The translations under genes were made by a program, and so were the position numbers. Positions 2,139 through 37,135 of a DNA stretch of 64,000 nucleotides are shown here, one piece after another; positions within the stretch are counted from its first letter, which is position 1, and each line of letters starts with the position of its first letter. The stretch is from the NCBI RefSeq assembly GCF_003019035.1, contig NZ_CP027447.1; one strand, given 5' to 3'. This DNA comes from Escherichia coli. Its GTDB lineage: Bacteria > Pseudomonadota > Gammaproteobacteria > Enterobacterales > Enterobacteriaceae. Under the pieces are notes generated by a model that was given only the letters and a program-made list of their open reading frames with translations, ran no database searches and had not been told where the DNA came from.

Positions 2139-3080
2139 ATGAGCACTAAATTAACCGGCTATGTATGGGATGGTTGCGCTGCGTCAGGCATGAAGTTATC
2201 CAGCGTGGCAATTATGGCCCGCCTGGCTGATTTCAGTAATGACGAAGGTGTGTGCTGGCCATCAATTGAAACCATTGCCCGCCAGATTGGCGCGGGGATG
2301 AGCACCGTCAGAACGGCTATCGCACGGCTGGAAGCAGAAGGCTGGTTAACGCGTAAGGCGCGTCGCCAGGGTAACCGCAATGCGTCGAATGTTTATCAGC
2401 TTAACGTTGCGAAGCTTCAGGCAGCGGCATTTTCTCAACTGTCAGATTCTGACCCGTCAAAATCTGACGCATCAAAATCTGACCAGTCAAAATTTGATGC
2501 GTCGAAATCTGGCAAAAAAGCGGGTTTTCACCCGTCAGAATCTGGCGGGGATCCGTCAGTAAAATCAAAACATGATCCGTCAGATAAAAAACCTTCTCGT
2601 CCGGACGCTTCGCAACCGGACACGCAGACGGATGAACAGGATTTTTTAACTCGCCATCCTGATGCGGTTGTATTCAGCCCTAAAAAGCGCCAGTGGGGAA
2701 CGCAGGATGATTTGACCTGCGCACAGTGGCTCTGGAAAAAAATCATCGCCCTGTACGAGCAGGCCGCCGAGTGTGACGGCGAGGTGGTTCGTCCCAAAGA
2801 ACCTAACTGGACAGCCTGGGCAAACGAAATTCGCCTGATGTGTGTGCAGGATGGTCGTACTCACAAACAAATCTGCGAGATGTATAGCCGCGTCAGCCGC
2901 GATCCGTTCTGGTGCCGTAACGTGCTCAGCCCGTCGAAGCTGCGGGAAAAATGGGATGAGCTTTCCCTGCGCTTATCGCCGTCCGTCAGCACGTACACCG
3001 AAAAACGCGAAGACCCGTACTTCAAAGCCAGTTACGACAATGTGGACTACAGCCAGATCCCGGCAGGATTCAGGGGGTGA
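2139..3080 (+). CDS. Phage replication initiation protein (O-like, N-terminal winged-helix DNA-binding domain)
   Basis: 313 aa; an internal DNA repeat array (iterons) encodes an SKSD-rich linker; position after the cro-proximal genes. Confidence 0.65.
   Translation: MSTKLTGYVWDGCAASGMKLSSVAIMARLADFSNDEGVCWPSIETIARQIGAGMSTVRTAIARLEAEGWLTRKARRQGNRNASNVYQLNVAKLQAAAFSQLSDSDPSKSDASKSDQSKFDASKSGKKAGFHPSESGGDPSVKSKHDPSDKKPSRPDASQPDTQTDEQDFLTRHPDAVVFSPKKRQWGTQDDLTCAQWLWKKIIALYEQAAECDGEVVRPKEPNWTAWANEIRLMCVQDGRTHKQICEMYSRVSRDPFWCRNVLSPSKLREKWDELSLRLSPSVSTYTEKREDPYFKASYDNVDYSQIPAGFRG
2441..2590. repeat. Iteron array (putative phage replication origin) inside the replication gene
   Basis: At least 6 direct copies of a ~12-bp unit (c)GTCAAAATCTGA(c) and variants at ~14-15 bp periodicity. 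Confidence 0.7.
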
Positions 3081-3571
3081 TCATGAGTCTTTTGAATGAC
3101 GTTCAGAAATTCATTGAAGCCCATCCGGGGTGTACTTCCGGAGACATTGCGGATGCTTTTGCAGGTTACTCACGACAGCGCGTTCTGCAGTCAGCAAGCA
3201 AGTTACGTCAGAGTGGGCGTGTGGCTCACCGTTGTGAAGGGGATACACGCAGACATTTCCCGCGGCTGACTGAGATACCGCAGGAGCCGGAACCGCAACC
3301 AGTTCGTGAATCCAGACCTGTGCGCAATTTCTATGTCGGCACTAACGATCCCCGGGTGATTTTGTGCCTGACCCGCCAGGCGGAAGAACTGGAGTCCAGG
3401 GGCTTATACCGTCGTGCTGCAACGGTGTGGATGGCGGCATTCCGTGAAAGCCACTCCCAGCAAGAGCGAAACAATTTTCTTGCGCGTCGTGAGCGGTGTT
3501 TACGGAAAAGCAGCAAGCGCGCTGTATCGGGTGAAGAGTGGTATCTGTCAGGGAATTACGTGGGGGCTTAA
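3077..3571 (+). CDS. PerC-family-like transcriptional regulator (tentative)
   Basis: 164 aa; the YRRAATVWMAAF segment resembles the RRAAxxW core I recall from PerC/Pch proteins; not aligned. Confidence 0.35.
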   Translation: MIMSLLNDVQKFIEAHPGCTSGDIADAFAGYSRQRVLQSASKLRQSGRVAHRCEGDTRRHFPRLTEIPQEPEPQPVRESRPVRNFYVGTNDPRVILCLTRQAEELESRGLYRRAATVWMAAFRESHSQQERNNFLARRERCLRKSSKRAVSGEEWYLSGNYVGA

Positions 3572-29953: not shown

Positions 29954-30514
29954 CATCCGGCGCGGTGCTGGTATCTGTTGCCGTCACCGCGTCAATGTAA
30001 TCCAGCACGGCGTTTAGTCGGGTGGTTTCTGTTTGCGTCAGCTTCCGTCCGGCCTGCAATTTCAGTTGAATAAGACTAATGGACGCCATTGCAGCATTAA
30101 TCAGCGACTGGCGCTGTGTTTCTGCCGCTTCTACTGCAGCACCGTGCTGTGCCTCAGTATCTGTCACCCATTTTTCCCATCCATTTATCGTATGGCGTTA
30201 ACGGTGAAAGCGTGACATAACCGTCTTTGATGGCACCGATATAATCCACTGTAACGGCAGCGCCATTTTCGGTTGAGTAAACAGTCTCATGGCGATGGTC
30301 TTCTTCATGGTGCCATCCTTCCCGTAAATACTGCCACTTTCCCCGAAATGTTTTCGCCCGGGTCAATATAAGTGGAACAAGCGGGCATACTTACACCAGT
30401 ATTAATATATTCATCAGACCAACCCGTATATTCATACGTTACTGTATCATAATAAAAACAACGCATATCACCCGGTACTGTAGCCAGCCCATTTTCATCA
30501 AAAACAGGTTTCAT
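29925..30514 (-). pseudogene. Alternative tail fibre assembly gene (tfa') in the invertible segment, disrupted by two frameshifts
   Basis: Three overlapping minus-strand frames (30514..30305, 30366..30154, 30167..29925) carry the N-terminal (FDENG), middle (EDHRHETVY...YDKWMG) and C-terminal (TDTSTAPDVIWPELP) parts of a Tfa-like protein. Confidence 0.55.
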
Positions 30515-30722
30515 TATTTAGCCCTCACCAGAAAGTTAAATGCGATGTTACGTGGCCTGACGGCAATAAAATTCACACCATCACCCACTGAATTACTGGT
30601 GTAATGGTATCGAGAGAAACCCGGCTCGTGTGCTGATATTCCATCGTGATTAGCAATCGAATGGCCGGAGCCCTCTGGATAATTACCTCCAAATTGCGAT
30701 AAAGATGTTGCTGCCTGCCAGC

Positions 30723-30958
30723 TTAATAATGCTCGCCACTATCCACCCCGCACCCATCATCCCAGATACGAATGAAATCACCCCGTGCGTCAGGTAATAC
30801 CAGCGACGGAAACACTTTCGCCAGCACAGGGTAATCAGTGGCAGAAAATTTCGCTCCGTTGAACTTCAAAAACACCATACCGGACCAGCTGTTGATTACG
30901 GTATTTGGCATTGCAGCGGAGGGCCAGAAGAACGGAACTCCAATAGCCGGAGCACCTT
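30723..30958 (-). CDS. Alternative tail-fibre variable C-terminal segment (Sv'), possibly truncated
   Basis: Minus-strand frame whose N-terminus crosses the right crossover site with the same LGLGE junction residues as the plus-strand fibre gene; ends ~200 nt before tfa'. Confidence 0.45.
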
Positions 30959-30968
30959 CTCCCAAACC
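30949..30968. repeat. Invertase crossover site, right (inverted copy)
   Basis: CTTCTCCCAAACCAACGTTT, inverted repeat of the left site; ~70 bp upstream of pin. Confidence 0.7.
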
Positions 30969-31036
30969 AACGTTTATGAAAATGCAGAAATAACGAGCAA
31001 ATGGCATCATTCCTGCTTTTGTCAGGGAGATCTACC

Positions 31037-31591
31037 ATGCTTATTGGCTATGTACGTGTGTCAACAAATGACCAGAACACAGATCTACAACGTAATGCGC
31101 TGAACTGTGCAGGATGCGAGCTGATTTTTGAAGACAAGATAAGCGGTACAAAGTCCGAAAGGCCGGGACTGAAAAAACTGCTCAGGACATTATCGGCAGG
31201 TGACACTCTGGTTGTCTGGAAGCTGGATCGGCTAGGGCGTAGTATGCGGCATCTGGTCATTCTGGTTGAGGAGTTGCGCGAACGTGGCGTTAATTTTCGC
31301 AGCCTGACGGATGCTATTGATACCAGCACACCGATGGGGCGTTTTTTCTTTCATGTGATGGGTGCCCTGGCTGAAATGGAACGAGAACTGATTGTTGAAC
31401 GAACAAAAGCTGGACTGGAAGCTGCTCGCGCACAGGGACGAATTGGTGGACGTCGTCCCAAACTTACACCAGAACAATGGGCGCAGGCCGGGCGATTAAT
31501 TGCATCAGGCGTTCCTCGCCAGAAGGTGGCGATCATCTATGATGTTGGTATATCGACACTGTATAAGAAGTTTCCGGTCGGAGATAAATGA
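31037..31591 (+). CDS. pin: Site-specific DNA invertase Pin (serine recombinase, Hin/Gin/Pin family)
   Basis: ~184 aa from MLIGYVRVSTNDQ; near-identical in pattern to e14 Pin (catalytic Ser in YVRVST; C-terminal HTH). Confidence 0.9.
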   Translation: MLIGYVRVSTNDQNTDLQRNALNCAGCELIFEDKISGTKSERPGLKKLLRTLSAGDTLVVWKLDRLGRSMRHLVILVEELRERGVNFRSLTDAIDTSTPMGRFFFHVMGALAEMERELIVERTKAGLEAARAQGRIGGRRPKLTPEQWAQAGRLIASGVPRQKVAIIYDVGISTLYKKFPVGDK

Positions 31592-31629
31592 AACCGTAGC
31601 ACGTCGTATGCAAGATCGTGCTGCGGTTT
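31591..31629. repeat. Hairpin repeat copy A (AAACCGTAGCACG-n13-CGTGCTGCGGTTT)
   Basis: 13-bp inverted repeat with one mismatch, directly after the pin stop; core shared with copies at 32609..32720 and 37170..37270. Confidence 0.6.
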
Positions 31630-31648
31630 ATGCTTATCACTTAAAGAC

Positions 31649-32518
<870 letters not shown>

Positions 32519-32608
32519 CTAATCCTTTGAATTTACATAGTAAAAAAGATACTTTTCCTCATAGTGTGAGCTAATTTTATGTTTCGTTTGATGATCGGAC
32601 CGGTCTCA

Positions 32609-32720
32609 AAAACCGCAGGCACGTTGTATGCAAGAACGTGCTGTGGCTGGCTGGTGAACTTCCAATAGTGCGAATATTGAATGATTTCTATCTGTTATAG
32701 ATTTTACCGTATTTCGGCAT
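32609..32720. repeat. Repeat copy B (~110 bp) of a dispersed element
   Basis: Shares the core CCGCAGGCACGTTGTATGCAAGAACGTGCTG and the downstream GGCTGGTGAACTTCCAATAGTGCGAATATTGAATGATTTC with copy C (~70% identity by eye). Confidence 0.55.
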
Positions 32721-32981
32721 GAATGAAACTGAATATCCTCCCACCGATTCTCCATGACTTTACGCCACTGTCTCTAGGGCTGCTATGTGCCAGAGGCGGA
32801 CGTTGTTAAAATAGAAAATATCCCAACCTTGTATGAGTCGTGCAATAATTTCGAACTTTATACAAAGCTTTGGTTGTAAAGGTGTATAACCACAAGTGAC
32901 ATTAATCACATTTGTAAAGGCAAAATGCAACAAACTGAATTAGTTAATTGCGTAAATTTGAAGTTATGTTAAGGTGGTGAT

Positions 32982-33114
32982 GGTTTATGGGCAGATTTTG
33001 GGTCGCGTTTCGCGATCAGTGAAAAAAATGTCCGATAGGATTGCCTTTCAGGATCTCATGTTCCTCGCATTTCTTAAGGTTCTTGTCAAGTTTGCGTAAG
33101 AGTGCCCATAAACC
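32982..33114 (+). ncRNA. Candidate retron msr/msd non-coding RNA flanked by inverted repeats a1/a2
   Basis: 12-bp perfect inverted repeats GGTTTATGGGCA (32982..32993) and TGCCCATAAACC (33103..33114) bracket 109 nt; a G follows a1; small hairpin TCGCG-TTT-CGCGA at 33003..33015; ends 20 bp before the RT start. Confidence 0.4.
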
Positions 33115-33133
33115 CTTTTAGAGGCGATCTAAA

Positions 33134-34969
33134 GTGAAACGACTACAATCATTAAAAGAAGCAAAAACAAAACCAGACTTGGCTAAGCTATTAGGAATCA
33201 AACCTTCAGCGTTAACATACTGCCTATATGTATTAAAACCTGAAAATCAATACACACAGTTTAAGATACCAAAAAAAAATGGCGGCGAACGGATAATAAG
33301 TGCACCTAACGGAATATTAAAGACGATACAGTCATCCTTATCAAGACTGCTTCTAGATTGCTTAGACGAAATAGTTTGCATTAAGTTTCCAGACTCAGAG
33401 TTAGCAAGGCAGAAAGCAAAAAACTCAAAAATATTAAAGTTAAAATGTTCCAACTCAGAAATCAAACAACCCTCACTGTCTCATGGATTTGAAAGAAAGC
33501 GTTCAATTATTACAAATGCAATGATGCACTTGGGGAAAAAATATGTTTTTAATATAGACTTGGATAATTTTTTCGGCAGTTTTAACTTTGGTAGAGTCCG
33601 AGGTTTTTTCATAAAAAATAGAAACTTTGCACTCGATCCGGAAATCGCAACTGTAATTGCTAAAATTGCGTGCTACAACAATGAACTACCCCAAGGCAGC
33701 CCATGCTCCCCAGTAATCACTAATCTAATCACTCACTCGTTAGACATTAAACTGGCAGCGATTGCATCAAGAAACTCATCCACTTTTACAAGATATGCTG
33801 ATGATATTACATTCTCTACGAGGAAGGGGGAGTTTCCTTCTGCTATAGCAAAAAATCAAAATGGTAAATATATCGTTAGTAAGAAAATTAGGGGCGAGAT
33901 AACTCGCTCAGGTTTTATAATTAATGATGGGAAGACAAGAAATCAGTATAAAGACTCGAGGCAAGATGTAACAGGCTTAGTGGTTAATAAAAAGCCAAAC
34001 ACGAAAAAAGAATATTGGAGGCTTGTGCGTGCGCAATGTGACCATTTATTTAAACATGGTGAGTTCTTAGAGGTGATTGACGGCAAGGAAATAAAGGGGA
34101 ATGTTAATACCCTTGCAGGCAAACTTAACTTCATAGACCAAGTTGACCACTATAATAGATTGCGTCAAGGCGAAAAATTAAATCCAAAATATCACTTAAA
34201 AAAAGATGCCAATAAAAATGGCCATGCCAAAAAAAGGCGTTACTTACATAGTTCTAGAGAAAAAACGTTTAGTGAGTTTCTCTTCTATCGTTTATTTTAT
34301 GGCAATGAATTACCAACAATTCTTACGGAAGGTAAAACTGACAATATTTATCTGAAGGCAGCAATACATAAGTTAGCCTCATCATTCCCTAATTTGGCGG
34401 TCGCTGAAAGTCCAGGGCTCTCTTATAAGCCACGGACTAAATTTGTTAACTACAATGAGCGGACAAAATATTTACTTGAACTTTATGGTGGTGCTGATTA
34501 TTTAAAGGATTTTGTTATTCATTATAAACAACACTTTAATCGTTATAAGGCTCCCAAACCATCTAATCCAGTAATTATACTTGTTGATAATGATAGCGGA
34601 CCAAAAGATCTGATTAATTACGTTAGTAAAGTTGATAATATTGGTATTTTCCCCACAGGTGTTCCAGATATCCGCGCCTCTGAGTTTGTACATATTTTTT
34701 GTAATCTTTATTTAGTGCTTACCCCTCAAGTTAAGGGATATACAGGAACTGATATAGAGCATTTTTTTAAAGATGCAGATCGACTTAGACCACATAAAGG
34801 TAAGTTTTTCAATACAGTCTCTAAGCGTGATCATGATAATGATTTGAGCAAGGAATCTTTCGCAACTCATATTGTTCATGCCCACAAGCATGAAATTGAT
34901 TTTAGTGGATTTACAAGCCTGTTAGAACGGTTAGTAAAAGTCATAAATCACTTTGACACTGTTAAGTAA
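33134..34969 (+). CDS. Retron-type reverse transcriptase fused to a C-terminal Toprim-like domain
   Basis: 611 aa (GTG start). RT motifs: IPKKNGGER, NAMMH (retron NAxxH), FNIDLDNFF (A), LPQGSPCSPVITNL (B), YADD (C), VTGLVVN (retron VTG); core resembles retron Ec86 RT as recalled. C-terminus carries acidic motifs ILTEGKTD and IILVDND. Confidence 0.8.
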   Translation: MKRLQSLKEAKTKPDLAKLLGIKPSALTYCLYVLKPENQYTQFKIPKKNGGERIISAPNGILKTIQSSLSRLLLDCLDEIVCIKFPDSELARQKAKNSKILKLKCSNSEIKQPSLSHGFERKRSIITNAMMHLGKKYVFNIDLDNFFGSFNFGRVRGFFIKNRNFALDPEIATVIAKIACYNNELPQGSPCSPVITNLITHSLDIKLAAIASRNSSTFTRYADDITFSTRKGEFPSAIAKNQNGKYIVSKKIRGEITRSGFIINDGKTRNQYKDSRQDVTGLVVNKKPNTKKEYWRLVRAQCDHLFKHGEFLEVIDGKEIKGNVNTLAGKLNFIDQVDHYNRLRQGEKLNPKYHLKKDANKNGHAKKRRYLHSSREKTFSEFLFYRLFYGNELPTILTEGKTDNIYLKAAIHKLASSFPNLAVAESPGLSYKPRTKFVNYNERTKYLLELYGGADYLKDFVIHYKQHFNRYKAPKPSNPVIILVDNDSGPKDLINYVSKVDNIGIFPTGVPDIRASEFVHIFCNLYLVLTPQVKGYTGTDIEHFFKDADRLRPHKGKFFNTVSKRDHDNDLSKESFATHIVHAHKHEIDFSGFTSLLERLVKVINHFDTVK

Positions 34970-35298
34970 TATTATGATGCGCACTGATTATTCCTTATTC
35001 AGCTAAAATTTCTACTGTAGTCCCAACTTCCGTTCCTCGCTCATAACAGACATTCACTACAGTTATGGTAGAAGGTATGCATGCTGGGTGGGGAAAGTAT
35101 GAAGGAAAAGAAGACTGCTGCGCCGTTTGTTGTCACATTTATCTTCATTGGCTATGCAAGTCGTAATACAAGGTGGGACAAAACTGAGACACATAAGGCC
35201 TCGCAATGACTTGCAAGGCTTTACATGTTTTGATGTGGTGGGACGTGTGAGCGCAGTGTTGATGGGGTAATGCTTTGAATTAGAAGCGGATTCTTATA

Positions 35299-35343
35299 AT
35301 TCGTAATGCGAAGGTCGTAGGTTCGACTCCTATTATCGGCACC
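35299..35343 (+). other. Partial tRNA-Thr 3' end (thrW-like pseudo-tRNA), prophage attR core
   Basis: ATTCGTAATGCGAAGGTCGTAGGTTCGACTCCTATTATCGGCACCA matches the anticodon-stem-to-CCA portion of E. coli tRNA-Thr(CGU) as recalled; no matching 5' acceptor strand upstream. Confidence 0.75.
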
Positions 35344-35941
35344 ATTTAAATCAATAAGTTATCTCACATTTAAGTAAACTACGTTCTCCTCTTGTGCCTT
35401 TGATTTTGCTCGCGTGCGCGGTGAAATGCCTGACTGAAAGGTGAGCATATCGACGAACCATTTCGAGAGTTTCCCATCTGCTCATTTTTAAGTGCAAGCA
35501 GGAAAACACCGGACTAAACCAATCAGCTGTTCGAAAATGGCAAGCGGATTAATATGCCATGGCGGGGCAGCTTTGAGCCGCACGCATGGGGTGTGGCAAG
35601 CCTGATGGATTTTGCTGTGCCTGTGGTGGCGTGTTTGCTGGTTTGGCTGTTGGTTAAACGCGAAAGTCATAATGCCAGGGGAATACCGCAGGGTGTTCAG
35701 GTTTTGCATAAAAAAGCCCACCATTAAGGTGGGCAAAAGGAATGATTTATATTCTCTGAGAGAAACATTACATTTCTCCTTGTCACTTCTAACATAAAAA
35801 TATGGAGAAATAATGGAGCTTATATTAATTGGCGATTAGGTAACCATGTGGTTATACAAAACAATACAGTTCTTTACATTTGCCTTGTTTTATGAATACT
35901 CCTGAAGAGGTGTACAACATAATTAAACAAACAGGGTAAAT

Positions 35942-36556
35942 ATGAATATATTTGAACAAACTCCACCGAACCGCAGACGTTATGGTCTTGCTGCATTCAT
36001 TGGGCTGATTGCTGGCGTTGTTTCCGCATTTGTGAAGTGGGGGGCTGAAGTTCCATTGCCGCCACGTAGCCCGGTGGATATGTTTAATGCAGCGTGTGGT
36101 CCGGAATCATTAATCAGGGCTGCTGGGCAAATTGATTGCTCCCGTAATTTTCTCAATCCTCCGTATATTTTTCTTCGAGACTGGCTGGGGCTGACAGATC
36201 CCAATGCGGCTGTTTATACCTTTGCCGGGCATGTCTTTAACTGGGTTGGTGTTACGCACATTATCTTTTCGATAGTGTTTGCTGTCGGTTATTGTGTGGT
36301 CGCTGAAGTATTTCCAAAAATTAAACTCTGGCAGGGCTTACTGGCAGGTGCTTTAGCCCAACTTTTTGTTCATATGATTTCATTCCCTCTCATGGGACTG
36401 ACGCCACCTCTGTTTGATCTCCCGTGGTATGAGAATGTTTCTGAAATTTTTGGACATTTAGTCTGGTTCTGGTCCATTGAAATTATTCGCAGAGATTTAC
36501 GAAACAGAATTACTCATGAGCCAGACCCTGAGATCCCTTTAGGCTCAAACAGATAA
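35942..36556 (+). CDS. yagU: Inner membrane protein YagU (DUF1440)
   Basis: 204 aa, multi-helix membrane protein; recognised as the E. coli YagU sequence. Confidence 0.85.
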
Positions 36557-36805
36557 TGCATTGAATGATAAAAATGGCGCAAATACAGCGCCATTTTTAT
36601 AGGTTAAAAACATTGTTTTTAACTTTCTGATGGCAGATAGCCAGTGAGTACATCGCGCTACTTCAGGATGCTGTAGATCCGGAGAACACTATAGAGGAAG
36701 AGGCATTGTTGCTGGCAGATGGAAGAAGTTTCGGGTTTTGTTATCCCTGAAAAACGAAGCCCCGCGATTATAGCTGGCGGGGCAGTGCAATTAATTATTG
36801 CATAT

Positions 36806-37135
36806 TTATAACGGTGTCAGCCCGTATTTAGCTCTTGCACGATTGCAAGCCTCATTGACGACTCCGTTCTCACCAGACATGGCGAATTCTCTGCACGTGG
36901 AAGATCGATTTTTATATATCGTGCAGCAGGCATTTTTGCCCGGTGTTCCTGCAAGGGCAATACATCGGGGGTTTTTCTGATTGGTACCGCTCATGCATCG
37001 GTGAAAAGGGGATATTTGTTCAGTGAGCCTGGCGGGAATGGTACCGCCAGCATCGTCGGCTTCGGCCCAGTAAAAAGAGACGCGGAAAAATGCACAACAG
37101 GCACCACACGTCATGCATGGATTCAGATTGCTCAT
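36806..37135 (-). CDS. ykgJ: Cys-rich ferredoxin-like protein YkgJ
   Basis: 109 aa with CxxCxxCC and further Cys clusters; conserved neighbour of yagU and the ecp operon. Confidence 0.8.

What the first reader, a model, noticed from the sequence alone, without database searches (positions are those of the whole stretch)
32982..33114. Candidate retron msr/msd flanked by 12-bp a1/a2 inverted repeats
Perfect 12-bp inverted repeats GGTTTATGGGCA and TGCCCATAAACC bracket 109 nt and end 20 bp upstream of the RT start, with a G directly after a1 and a small hairpin at 33003..33015. This is the geometry expected for a retron non-coding RNA with a short msDNA; I could not resolve the msd stem-loop by eye.
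Basis: partly seen in the sequence, partly recalled or inferred. Interest (0 to 1): 0.65.

Follow-up and report, generated by a model that had tools for sequence, protein, structure and literature searches.

The report
Retron non-coding RNA, Ec67 (I-C1) type
The inverted repeats mark the non-coding RNA of a prophage-borne E. coli retron (an anti-phage reverse-transcriptase system) related to the well-studied retron Eco2/Ec67; this is a correct call, but an ordinary new member of a known family.

Summary
GGTTTATGGGCA (32982-32993) and TGCCCATAAACC (33103-33114) are perfect inverted repeats. A G (32994) follows a1, a 7-bp hairpin lies at 33001-33017, and the reverse transcriptase (RT) ORF starts at 33134.

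The ORF (611 aa) is a retron Ec67-family RT-Toprim fusion (type I-C1), about 50% identical to retron Eco2.

The same RNA lies upstream of the RT gene in 76 of 77 related loci from Gamma-, Beta-, Alpha- and Zetaproteobacteria and Acidobacteria.
- The a1/a2 helix is 98.5% paired, and 11 of its 12 pairs show compensatory changes.
- The msr hairpin is 99.2% paired, with 6 of 7 pairs compensatory.
- The G after a1 and the opposing G before a2 are invariant.
- An extended -10 promoter sits at a fixed distance upstream.

The element aligns base-for-base with the experimentally mapped Eco2 ncRNA. That alignment predicts branching at G32994 and a 72-nt msDNA templated by 33101 down to 33030, which is not short.

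No msDNA or defence has been shown for this locus. Verdict: interpretation supported; new member of a known kind; low interest.

The parts
32948..32975 (+). Predicted sigma-70 promoter of the retron transcript: -35 TTGCGT (32948-32953), 16-nt spacer containing TG (32967-32968), -10 TAAGGT (32970-32975). Predicted transcription start is about 32981.
   Evidence: An ungapped alignment of 74 loci anchored on the branching G gives the consensus TTGaat-17-TGnTAnaTT at a fixed distance. 66/74 have TAnnnT and 48/74 have TGnTAnnnT. The generic promoter scan missed it because its thresholds were not met. Inferred, not shown.
32981..33115 (+). Whole retron ncRNA (msr-msd) as matched by the family covariance model.
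   Evidence: Model R1 scores 124.4 bits, E 6e-30, and this is the only real hit in 64 kb on both strands. The window sequence was in the seed alignment, but the model also recovers held-out loci L052, L056 and L071 at 72-77 bits.
32982..32993 (+). a1 inverted repeat (5' arm of the closing helix).
   Evidence: The helix is 98.5% paired across 74 sequences and 11 of 12 pairs have changes on both sides.
32994..32994 (+). Predicted branching guanosine, whose 2'-OH primes reverse transcription. It is homologous to Eco2 rG15.
   Evidence: G is invariant in 74/74 sequences (alignment column 14). It aligns with Eco2 G15 (PMC12405507, PMC12916289). The role is inferred by homology.
33001..33017 (+). 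Single msr stem-loop (7 bp, UUU loop), homologous to the Eco2 RNA stem-loop G20-U42.
   Evidence: 99.2% paired, and 6 of 7 pairs have compensatory changes.
33018..33029 (+). Conserved AGU, then the single-stranded linker GAAAAAAAU (33021-33029), equivalent to Eco2 ssRb G43-U51. U33029 aligns with the flipped-out U51 at the termination site.
   Evidence: Alignment A2. Eco2 anatomy from PMC12405507 and PMC12916289.
33030..33101 (+). msd template. The predicted msDNA is its reverse complement, 72 nt: 5'-TCTTACGCAAACTTGACAAGAACCTTAAGAAATGCGAGGAACATGAGATCCTGAAAGGCAATCCTATCGGAC-3'. Synthesis runs from A33101 to G33030.
   Evidence: The ends are placed by alignment to Eco2 (dT1 templated by the A two bases before a2; termination at G52:dC67) (PMC12916289). 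The sequenced RT-DNA of census retron 1016 (Mariprofundus, same ncRNA sub-type) spans the homologous interval within 1 nt at each end. The centre is variable in sequence and length across the family; predicted msDNAs are 60-85 nt, median 67.
33030..33041 (+). Small hairpin GUCC-GAUA-GGAU at the termination site. It is sub-family specific and only weakly supported.
   Evidence: 71% of cells are paired and compensatory changes are few. It was not included in the covariance model.
33102..33102 (+). Opposing G, immediately 5' of a2 and facing the branching G.
   Evidence: Invariant in 74/74 sequences. [quoted passage not shown]
33103..33114 (+). a2 inverted repeat (3' arm of the closing helix).
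33134..34969 (+). RT-Toprim fusion gene (611 aa, GTG start, AGAGG Shine-Dalgarno at 33120-33124). Motifs present: NAMMH 128-132, YADD 221-224, VTG 279-281, Toprim EGKTD 399-403 and DND 485-487.
   Evidence: All of these residues are invariant across 26 homologues.

Best explanation
This is the msr-msd non-coding RNA of a single-gene type I-C1 retron (Ec67/Eco2 family). It is carried as the last gene of a prophage integrated at a tRNA-Thr gene.

Proposed mechanism:
1. A sigma-70 promoter with an extended -10 box starts transcription at about 32981. [quoted passage not shown]
2. a1 (32982-32993) pairs with a2 (33103-33114), which places G32994 opposite G33102.
3. The RT binds the msr hairpin (33001-33017) and uses the 2'-OH of G32994 to prime DNA synthesis on the msd template, from A33101 down to G33030.
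4. This yields a branched RNA-linked msDNA of about 72 nt. Its 3' end stays paired to roughly 33030-33040 of the RNA.
5. By analogy with Eco2, the msDNA holds the RT-Toprim protein in an inactive oligomer and cages the Toprim nuclease.
6. Phage nucleases that degrade the msDNA free the Toprim domain, which nicks tRNAs and stops translation (abortive infection).

Shown here: the sequence features, their conservation and covariation, homology to Eco2, and intact catalytic motifs.

Inferred by homology: the branching site, the msDNA ends, assembly, trigger and target.
For: (1) The RT is a full-length Ec67-family RT-Toprim.
- PADLOC RT-Toprim_I-C 736 bits; NCBIfam retron_Ec67_fus 742 bits against a cut-off of 450.
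- E 8e-137 to the PDB Eco2 chains 9i2f/9lm3.
- RefSeq annotates identical copies as 'retron Ec67 family RNA-directed DNA polymerase/endonuclease'.

(2) The a1-G...G-a2 architecture is found upstream of the RT gene in 76 of 77 related loci that have upstream sequence. The a1 sequences differ but are always complementary to a2, for example GGCTCACATGCA, GGTGTGCAGGCA, GGGCCTACAGACA and GAACCCACCGGTA.

(3) Covariation is strong.
- a1/a2 is 98.5% paired with 11/12 pairs compensatory; the msr hairpin is 99.2% paired with 6/7 compensatory.
- 0 of 500 shuffles reach the observed values, and slid controls pair only 30-38%.

(4) Both opposing Gs are invariant, as are GAU after a1 and GCnnAnGAG before a2.

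(5) The element aligns base-for-base with the Eco2 ncRNA: branch G15, 23-nt stem-loop, 9-nt linker, termination at G52, 67-nt msd. The Eco2 sequence was verified at 100% in E. coli S10 and in the retron census supplement together with its RT-DNA. Its anatomy comes from PMC12405507 and PMC12916289.

(6) A census I-C1 retron with the same ncRNA sub-type (node 1016) has a sequenced RT-DNA covering the homologous span.

(7) The family covariance model hits the window once, at 124.4 bits, and finds held-out loci.

(8) A promoter is conserved at a fixed distance upstream.

(9) No ORF of at least 50 aa overlaps 32982-33114.
Against: No experimental data exist for this locus.

In the retron census, the I-C1 retron whose a1 and msr are identical to the window's (node 991, Pseudoalteromonas) gave no RT-DNA by PAGE or sequencing when expressed in E. 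coli. Node 1016 gave 0 by PAGE although its RT-DNA was sequenced. msDNA yield may therefore be low or condition-dependent.

The msd has no stable stem-loop (z -1.5), and RNAalifold finds no consensus structure in it.

The RT is only about 50% identical to Eco2 and carries an insertion of about 25 residues, so oligomer state, trigger and target may differ.

Rfam has no model that recognises the element.
Confidence: 0.93

Rival explanations
1. It is a real Ec67-type ncRNA by descent, but the locus is functionally silent or produces no stable msDNA. The cause could be decay, or a missing host or phage factor.
For: Census relatives with the same a1/msr gave 0 RT-DNA by PAGE, and node 991 gave none by sequencing either. 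The promoter hexamers in the window are weak: 3 of 6 matches in each, rescued only by the TG extension.
Against: Every catalytic and structural hallmark is intact. These are YADD, NAxxH, VTG, EGxxD, DxD, both opposing Gs, and a perfect 12-bp a1/a2. The locus is 99.6-100% conserved in 18 complete E. coli genomes. The census used heterologous over-expression and codon-changed RTs, not native loci.
Confidence: 0.1
2. The a1/a2 helix is a cis-regulatory 5'-UTR structure (attenuator or translational control) of the RT gene and is not reverse-transcribed.
For: The helix ends 19 nt before the start codon. Covariation alone proves an RNA structure, not reverse transcription.
Against: It is homologous, position by position, to the Eco2 ncRNA, for which branching at G15 and a 67-nt msDNA are established (PMC12916289). 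The opposing Gs and the template-end motifs are invariant, which a simple attenuator would not require. The Shine-Dalgarno sequence lies outside the helix.
Confidence: 0.02
3. It is a chance inverted repeat with no function.
For: 12-nt inverted repeats within 200 nt are not rare in this window: 8 are found. The fold z-score is only -1.9.
Against: The helix is conserved with compensatory changes in more than 70 loci from several phyla, always upstream of the same RT family.
Confidence: 0.005

Closest known systems
Retron-Eco2 (Ec67), type I-C1, E. coli
   Same: - Single-gene architecture: ncRNA followed by an RT-Toprim fusion.
- The ncRNA is the same size (133 nt here, 131 nt in Eco2, from a1 to a2).
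- Shared ncRNA layout: a1-G-AUUU, a single msr hairpin, CAGUG, a 9-nt linker ending in AAU, G at the termination site, GCG(U/A)A(A/G)GAG before a2, and opposing Gs.
- Both have a weak msd hairpin.
- Both are prophage-borne.
- YADD, EGxxD and DxD motifs are conserved.
   Different: - The protein is only about 50% identical, 611 aa against 586 aa. It has an insertion of about 25 lysine-rich residues between RT residues 85 and 114.
- The a1/a2 sequence differs: GGUUUAUGGGCA here, ACGCAUGUAGGCA in Eco2.
- The msr hairpin is 17 nt rather than 23 nt.
- The msd sequence is unrelated in its centre and 72 nt rather than 67 nt.
- The prophage differs. This one is a tailed prophage with a contractile tail at tRNA-Thr; the Eco2 locus is flanked by a replication endonuclease, portal and terminase genes.
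Type I-C1 retrons of the Khan et al. retron census, nodes 991, 1000 and 1016 (Pseudoalteromonas, Mariprofundus)
   Same: - The a1/a2 core GG(U/C)UUAUGGGCA and the msr hairpin GGGUCGCGUUUCGCGAUC are identical or nearly identical.
- They are classified as clade 8, type I-C1.
- The RT-DNA of node 1016 maps to the interval homologous to 33030-33101.
   Different: The msd centres and the hosts differ. RT-DNA was not detectable by PAGE for nodes 991 and 1016.
Retron-Eco1 (Ec86), type II-A
   Same: Both have a1/a2, a branching G, and msr-msd upstream of the RT.
   Different: - Eco1 has a separate effector protein and two msr hairpins.
- Its msd hairpin is long and stable (-23.6 kcal/mol, z -7.3, against -6.8 here).
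- The RT match is only 103 bits.

Membership tests
Retron ncRNA (msr-msd) | Inverted repeats a1/a2 that close the transcript | tested here: met
   Perfect 12 bp in the window. 98.5% paired with 11/12 pairs compensatory in 74 sequences.
Retron ncRNA (msr-msd) | Conserved branching G immediately 3' of a1, facing a G immediately 5' of a2 | tested here: met
   G32994 and G33102; both columns are invariant in 74/74 sequences.
Retron ncRNA (msr-msd) | One to three msr stem-loops | tested here: met
   One 7-bp hairpin at 33001-33017, 99.2% paired, 6/7 pairs compensatory.
Retron ncRNA (msr-msd) | Long stable msd stem-loop | tested here: not met
   The predicted msDNA folds at -6.8 kcal/mol, z -1.5, and the family mean z is -0.64. 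The validated member Eco2 fails the same test (z 0.05), and its msDNA forms a three-way junction in the complex (PMC12916289). The feature therefore does not define type I-C.
Retron ncRNA (msr-msd) | Located directly upstream of a retron-type RT, on the same strand | tested here: met
   a2 ends 19 nt before the RT start codon. The same arrangement holds in 76/77 related loci.
Retron ncRNA (msr-msd) | Production of 2'-5' branched msDNA | not testable with these tools
   This needs nucleic-acid extraction or RT-DNA sequencing. Only homologues have data (Eco2; census node 1016).
Retron type I-C1 (RT-Toprim) | Retron RT with YADD and the retron-type NAxxH and VTG motifs (the last two as retron signatures from my own knowledge) | tested here: met
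   NAMMH 128-132, YADD 221-224 and VTG 279-281, all invariant in alignment A1. Pfam RVT_1.
Retron type I-C1 (RT-Toprim) | C-terminal Toprim domain with motif IV EGxxD and motif V DxD (DxE would indicate I-C2) (PMC7736814) | tested here: met
   EGKTD 399-403 and DND 485-487. PADLOC RT-Toprim_I-C and NCBIfam NF038237 above its cut-off. The census places the nearest ncRNA relatives in I-C1.
Retron type I-C1 (RT-Toprim) | No separate effector gene | tested here: met
   Nothing is co-oriented downstream; the prophage end (attR) follows 330 nt after the stop codon. The upstream neighbour is divergent and is an independent defence gene, PD-T4-3.
Retron type I-C1 (RT-Toprim) | [quoted passage not shown] | not testable with these tools
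   Shown for Eco2 only (PMC12916289, PMC12405507).

The most novel reading that the evidence does not exclude
The 611-aa sub-branch to which this retron belongs has three distinguishing features.
- RT identity within it is at least 55%; it occurs in Enterobacterales, Vibrionales, Alteromonadales, Pseudomonas and others.
- It carries a conserved lysine-rich insertion of about 25 residues in the RT (85-114).
- It has an invariant a1 core, a 4-bp hairpin at the termination site, and a conserved first ~22 nt of msDNA.

It could therefore be a mechanistically distinct I-C1 variant, with a different msDNA-protein assembly or a different phage trigger from the DenB/A1-sensing trimer of Eco2. That might also explain why its members gave little or no RT-DNA in the census.
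Probability: 0.15. Interest if true: 0.4.

Novelty: new member of a known kind. Interest (0 to 1): 0.2.

Why it matters
The practical gain is precise boundaries for an unannotated ncRNA next to a gene that RefSeq already names. These are the branch point G32994, a predicted 72-nt msDNA and a promoter.

It would be a second, divergent E. coli type I-C1 retron to compare with Eco2. That comparison could address trigger specificity and which msDNA features the Toprim 'cage' needs, and the retron is a possible retron-editing chassis.

It also shows the retron sitting beside PD-T4-3 at the attR end of a prophage, a typical prophage defence hotspot.

None of this changes current understanding of retrons.

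Tried and rejected
- Rfam, at E up to 10 on 30000-37000 and at gathering thresholds on the whole window, has no match to the element. Absence there only reflects missing models.
- The generic promoter scan found nothing upstream of a1. The family alignment was needed to see the position-conserved extended -10.
- RNAalifold gave no consensus structure for the msd, and its two extra pairs (columns 139-148 and 140-147) never vary, so they are uninformative.
- My first test of the termination-site hairpin used columns that were off by one (18.6% paired). Corrected, it is 71% paired with few compensatory changes, so it was left out of the model as sub-family specific.
- Single-strand DNA folds of all predicted msDNAs were tested for a hidden hairpin. 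None was convincing: mean z -0.64, with 11% of sequences below -2.
- L069 lacks a convincing ncRNA (13.7 bits), but only 186 nt of upstream sequence are available.
- I looked for a complete E. coli genome with the same retron-yagU junction and found none.
- Rfam did not recognise the tRNA fragment at the prophage end. BLAST to annotated tRNA-Thr genes did.
- I considered and rejected a link between the retron and the neighbouring GIY-YIG gene. That gene is divergent and is the stand-alone PD-T4-3 system.

Full report
**Observation**

- a1 GGTTTATGGGCA lies at 32982-32993 and a2 TGCCCATAAACC at 33103-33114, with 109 nt between them.
- G32994 directly follows a1.
- a2 ends 19 nt before the GTG at 33134, which opens a 611-codon ORF.

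The repeat finder reports the pair independently (I7). As an isolated feature it is not striking. The window holds eight inverted repeats of at least 12 nt within 200 nt, and the RNA fold of 32975-33125 is only 1.9 sd better than shuffles. The case rests on context and comparison.

**The gene downstream**

The ORF is a full-length retron Ec67-family RT-Toprim fusion.
- PADLOC RT-Toprim_I-C scores 736 bits over residues 1-609.
- NCBIfam NF038237 'retron_Ec67_fus' scores 742 bits against a cut-off of 450.
- Pfam finds RVT_1.
- The best solved structures are the Eco2 chains 9i2f/9lm3, at E 8e-137 and roughly 50% identity.
- Identical copies in 18 of 5,426 complete E. coli genomes are annotated by RefSeq as 'retron Ec67 family RNA-directed DNA polymerase/endonuclease'. 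No ncRNA feature is listed under those matches.
- NAMMH (128-132), YADD (221-224), VTG (279-281), Toprim EGKTD (399-403) and DND (485-487) are present and invariant among 26 homologues.
- EGxxD plus DxD is the I-C1/I-C3 signature of Mestre et al. (PMC7736814).

**Comparative evidence for the RNA**

The RT has thousands of homologues. A scan of one genome per species returned 79 loci.

Upstream of nearly every one of them, the longest inverted repeat is an a1/a2 pair followed by GAU. It spans 117-148 nt and ends 10-57 nt before the RT start. The arm sequences differ but stay complementary: GGCTCACATGCA, GGTGTGCAGGCA, GGGCCTACAGACA, GAACCCACCGGTA, GGCTCGCGGACA and others.

I aligned 74 distinct elements, including the window and Eco2 (A2).
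- RNAalifold recovers the a1/a2 helix and the msr hairpin.
- The a1/a2 helix is 98.5% paired, and 11 of 12 pairs have changes on both sides.
- The msr hairpin is 99.2% paired, with 6 of 7 pairs compensatory.
- No shuffle in 500 reaches the observed values, and sliding the partners drops pairing to 30-38%.
- The G after a1 and the G before a2, the 'two opposing Gs' of retron ncRNAs (PMC7736814), are invariant.

A covariance model built from A2 hits the window once, at 32981-33115 with 124.4 bits. It also finds the element in loci left out of the seed: L052, L056 and L071 at 72-77 bits. Counting these, 76 of the 77 loci with upstream sequence carry the RNA.

**Homology to Eco2 fixes the anatomy**

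I recalled the Eco2 ncRNA sequence from memory and then tested it.
- It is present at 100% identity in E. coli S10, the source strain of PMC12405507, at the 5' end of the Ec67-family gene call.
- It is printed with its RT-DNA in the retron census supplement.
- Its residues match the numbering in the two structural papers: branch rG15, ssRa A16-U19, stem-loop G20-U42, ssRb G43-U51, and termination at G52:dC67 with U51 flipped out.

In A2 the window aligns to it column by column.

| Feature | Window | Eco2 equivalent |
|---|---|---|
| Branching G | G32994 | G15 |
| msr stem-loop | 33001-33017 | G20-U42 |
| Single-stranded linker | GAAAAAAAU, 33021-33029 | ssRb G43-U51 |
| Termination site | G33030 | G52 |
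| Template of first DNA nucleotide | A33101 | A templating dT1 |
| Unpaired G before a2 | G33102 | G before a2 |

The predicted msDNA is therefore 72 nt: 5'-TCTTACGCAAACTTGACAAGAACCTTAAGAAATGCGAGGAACATGAGATCCTGAAAGGCAATCCTATCGGAC-3'.

An independent check comes from census retron 1016 (Mariprofundus, type I-C1, same a1 and msr sub-type). Its sequenced RT-DNA covers the homologous interval to within one nucleotide at each end. The msDNA is thus not short; the family range is 60-85 nt with a median of 67.

**The missing msd stem-loop**

The predicted msDNA folds weakly (-6.8 kcal/mol, z -1.5). So does the real Eco2 msDNA (-6.2, z 0.05). The Ec86 msDNA, used as a positive control, gives -23.6, z -7.3. 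Across the family the mean z is -0.64, and no consensus msd structure emerges.

This agrees with the 2026 Eco2 structure. There, nucleotides 29-50 of the msDNA do not form a hairpin but join a three-way junction across the trimer (PMC12916289). The weak msd fold is a trait of type I-C, not evidence against the call.

**Promoter**

An ungapped alignment of the 55 nt upstream, anchored on the branching G, gives the consensus TTGaat-17-TGnTAnaTT at a fixed distance. 66/74 sequences have TAnnnT and 48/74 have the extended TGnTAnnnT.

In the window this corresponds to TTGCGT (32948-32953) and TGtTAAGGT (32967-32975). That predicts a start near 32981, which puts the branching G at about +14, compared with +15 in Eco2. 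This is inferred, not shown.

**Mechanism**

Shown here: the sequence parts, their covariation, homology to Eco2, intact active sites, and prophage location.

Inferred from Eco2 (PMC12916289, PMC12405507):
1. RT binding to the msr and 2'-5' priming at G32994.
2. Removal of the template by a host RNase.
3. Assembly of an RT-Toprim:msDNA oligomer that cages the Toprim nuclease.
4. Activation when phage nucleases (DenB or A1 for Eco2) degrade the msDNA.
5. Nicking of tRNA acceptor stems, followed by translation arrest.

Caveats:
- The protein is only about 50% identical to Eco2 and has an insertion of about 25 residues.
- Census relatives with the same a1/msr gave no RT-DNA band on PAGE.

**Context**

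Window positions 1 to about 35350 are a tailed prophage with terminase, sheath, tape-measure and baseplate genes and the pinE invertase.

Positions 35299-35346 are identical to the 3' 48 nt of annotated tRNA-Thr genes, and no complete tRNA is present in the window. This is an att-site copy. The retron is therefore the last gene before the prophage end.

Its divergent upstream neighbour (31649-32473, minus strand) is the single-gene defence system PD-T4-3 (464 bits). Type I-C retrons are reported to be frequently prophage-borne (PMC12916289).

**Verdict**

The element is an unannotated but recognisable member of the known type I-C1 retron ncRNA family. It is a new member of a known kind, of low interest to a specialist apart from offering a second, divergent E. 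coli I-C1 system for comparison with Eco2.

Noticed in passing
window 31649-32473 (-): The divergent neighbour of the retron is a GIY-YIG protein that matches the single-gene anti-phage system PD-T4-3 (PADLOC 464 bits; RefSeq calls it a 'LEM-3-like GIY-YIG domain-containing protein'). Retron and PD-T4-3 together form a small defence cluster at the prophage end.
   Followed up: partly
window 35299-35346 (+): A 48-nt stretch is identical to the 3' end of annotated E. coli tRNA-Thr genes, and ARAGORN finds no complete tRNA in the window. It is most likely the attR copy that marks the right end of the prophage, about 330 nt after the retron stop codon.
   Followed up: partly
window 35346-35942 versus L001 14699-20382: In strain EC7 and the other genomes that carry this retron, the prophage end is followed by a LysR pseudogene and paoDCBA before yagU. 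In the window, yagU follows after about 600 nt that other genomes annotate as an integrase fragment. None of the 5,426 complete E. coli genomes has the window's retron-yagU junction.
   Followed up: partly
window 33386-33475 (RT residues 85-114): The RT has a lysine-rich insertion of about 25 residues (FPDSELARQKAKNSKILKLKCSNSEIKQPS) that is absent from Eco2. It is conserved, with invariant P86, S88 and Q112, in homologues of at least 56% identity. Its function is unknown.
   Followed up: no
window 36562-36763 (+): There is a full-length match to the Rfam sRNA family IS009 (191.7 bits against a gathering score of 117), just downstream of yagU.
   Followed up: no
alignment A2 columns 70-138 (window about 33045-33093): The centre of the msd is hypervariable in sequence and length even between loci whose a1, msr and msd ends are nearly identical; census node 991 has the window's exact a1+msr but an unrelated msd. 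Window, Yersinia, Pantoea, Shewanella, Oceanimonas and Grimontia loci share the last ~22 nt of the template (TTCTTGTCAAGTTTGCGTA).
   Followed up: partly
L081 3050-4930 (E. coli S10, Eco2 locus): The RefSeq CDS for the Eco2 RT-Toprim starts at 3050, inside the ncRNA (3001-3132). This gives a 626-aa product, whereas the published protein is 586 aa and would start at 3170. It looks like an over-extended start call caused by the unannotated ncRNA.
   Followed up: no
window 31569-31625 (+): There is a sub-threshold partial match to the Shigella sRNA CssrB (32.4 bits against a gathering score of 76), essentially a terminator-like hairpin at the end of pinE. It is probably not meaningful.
   Followed up: no
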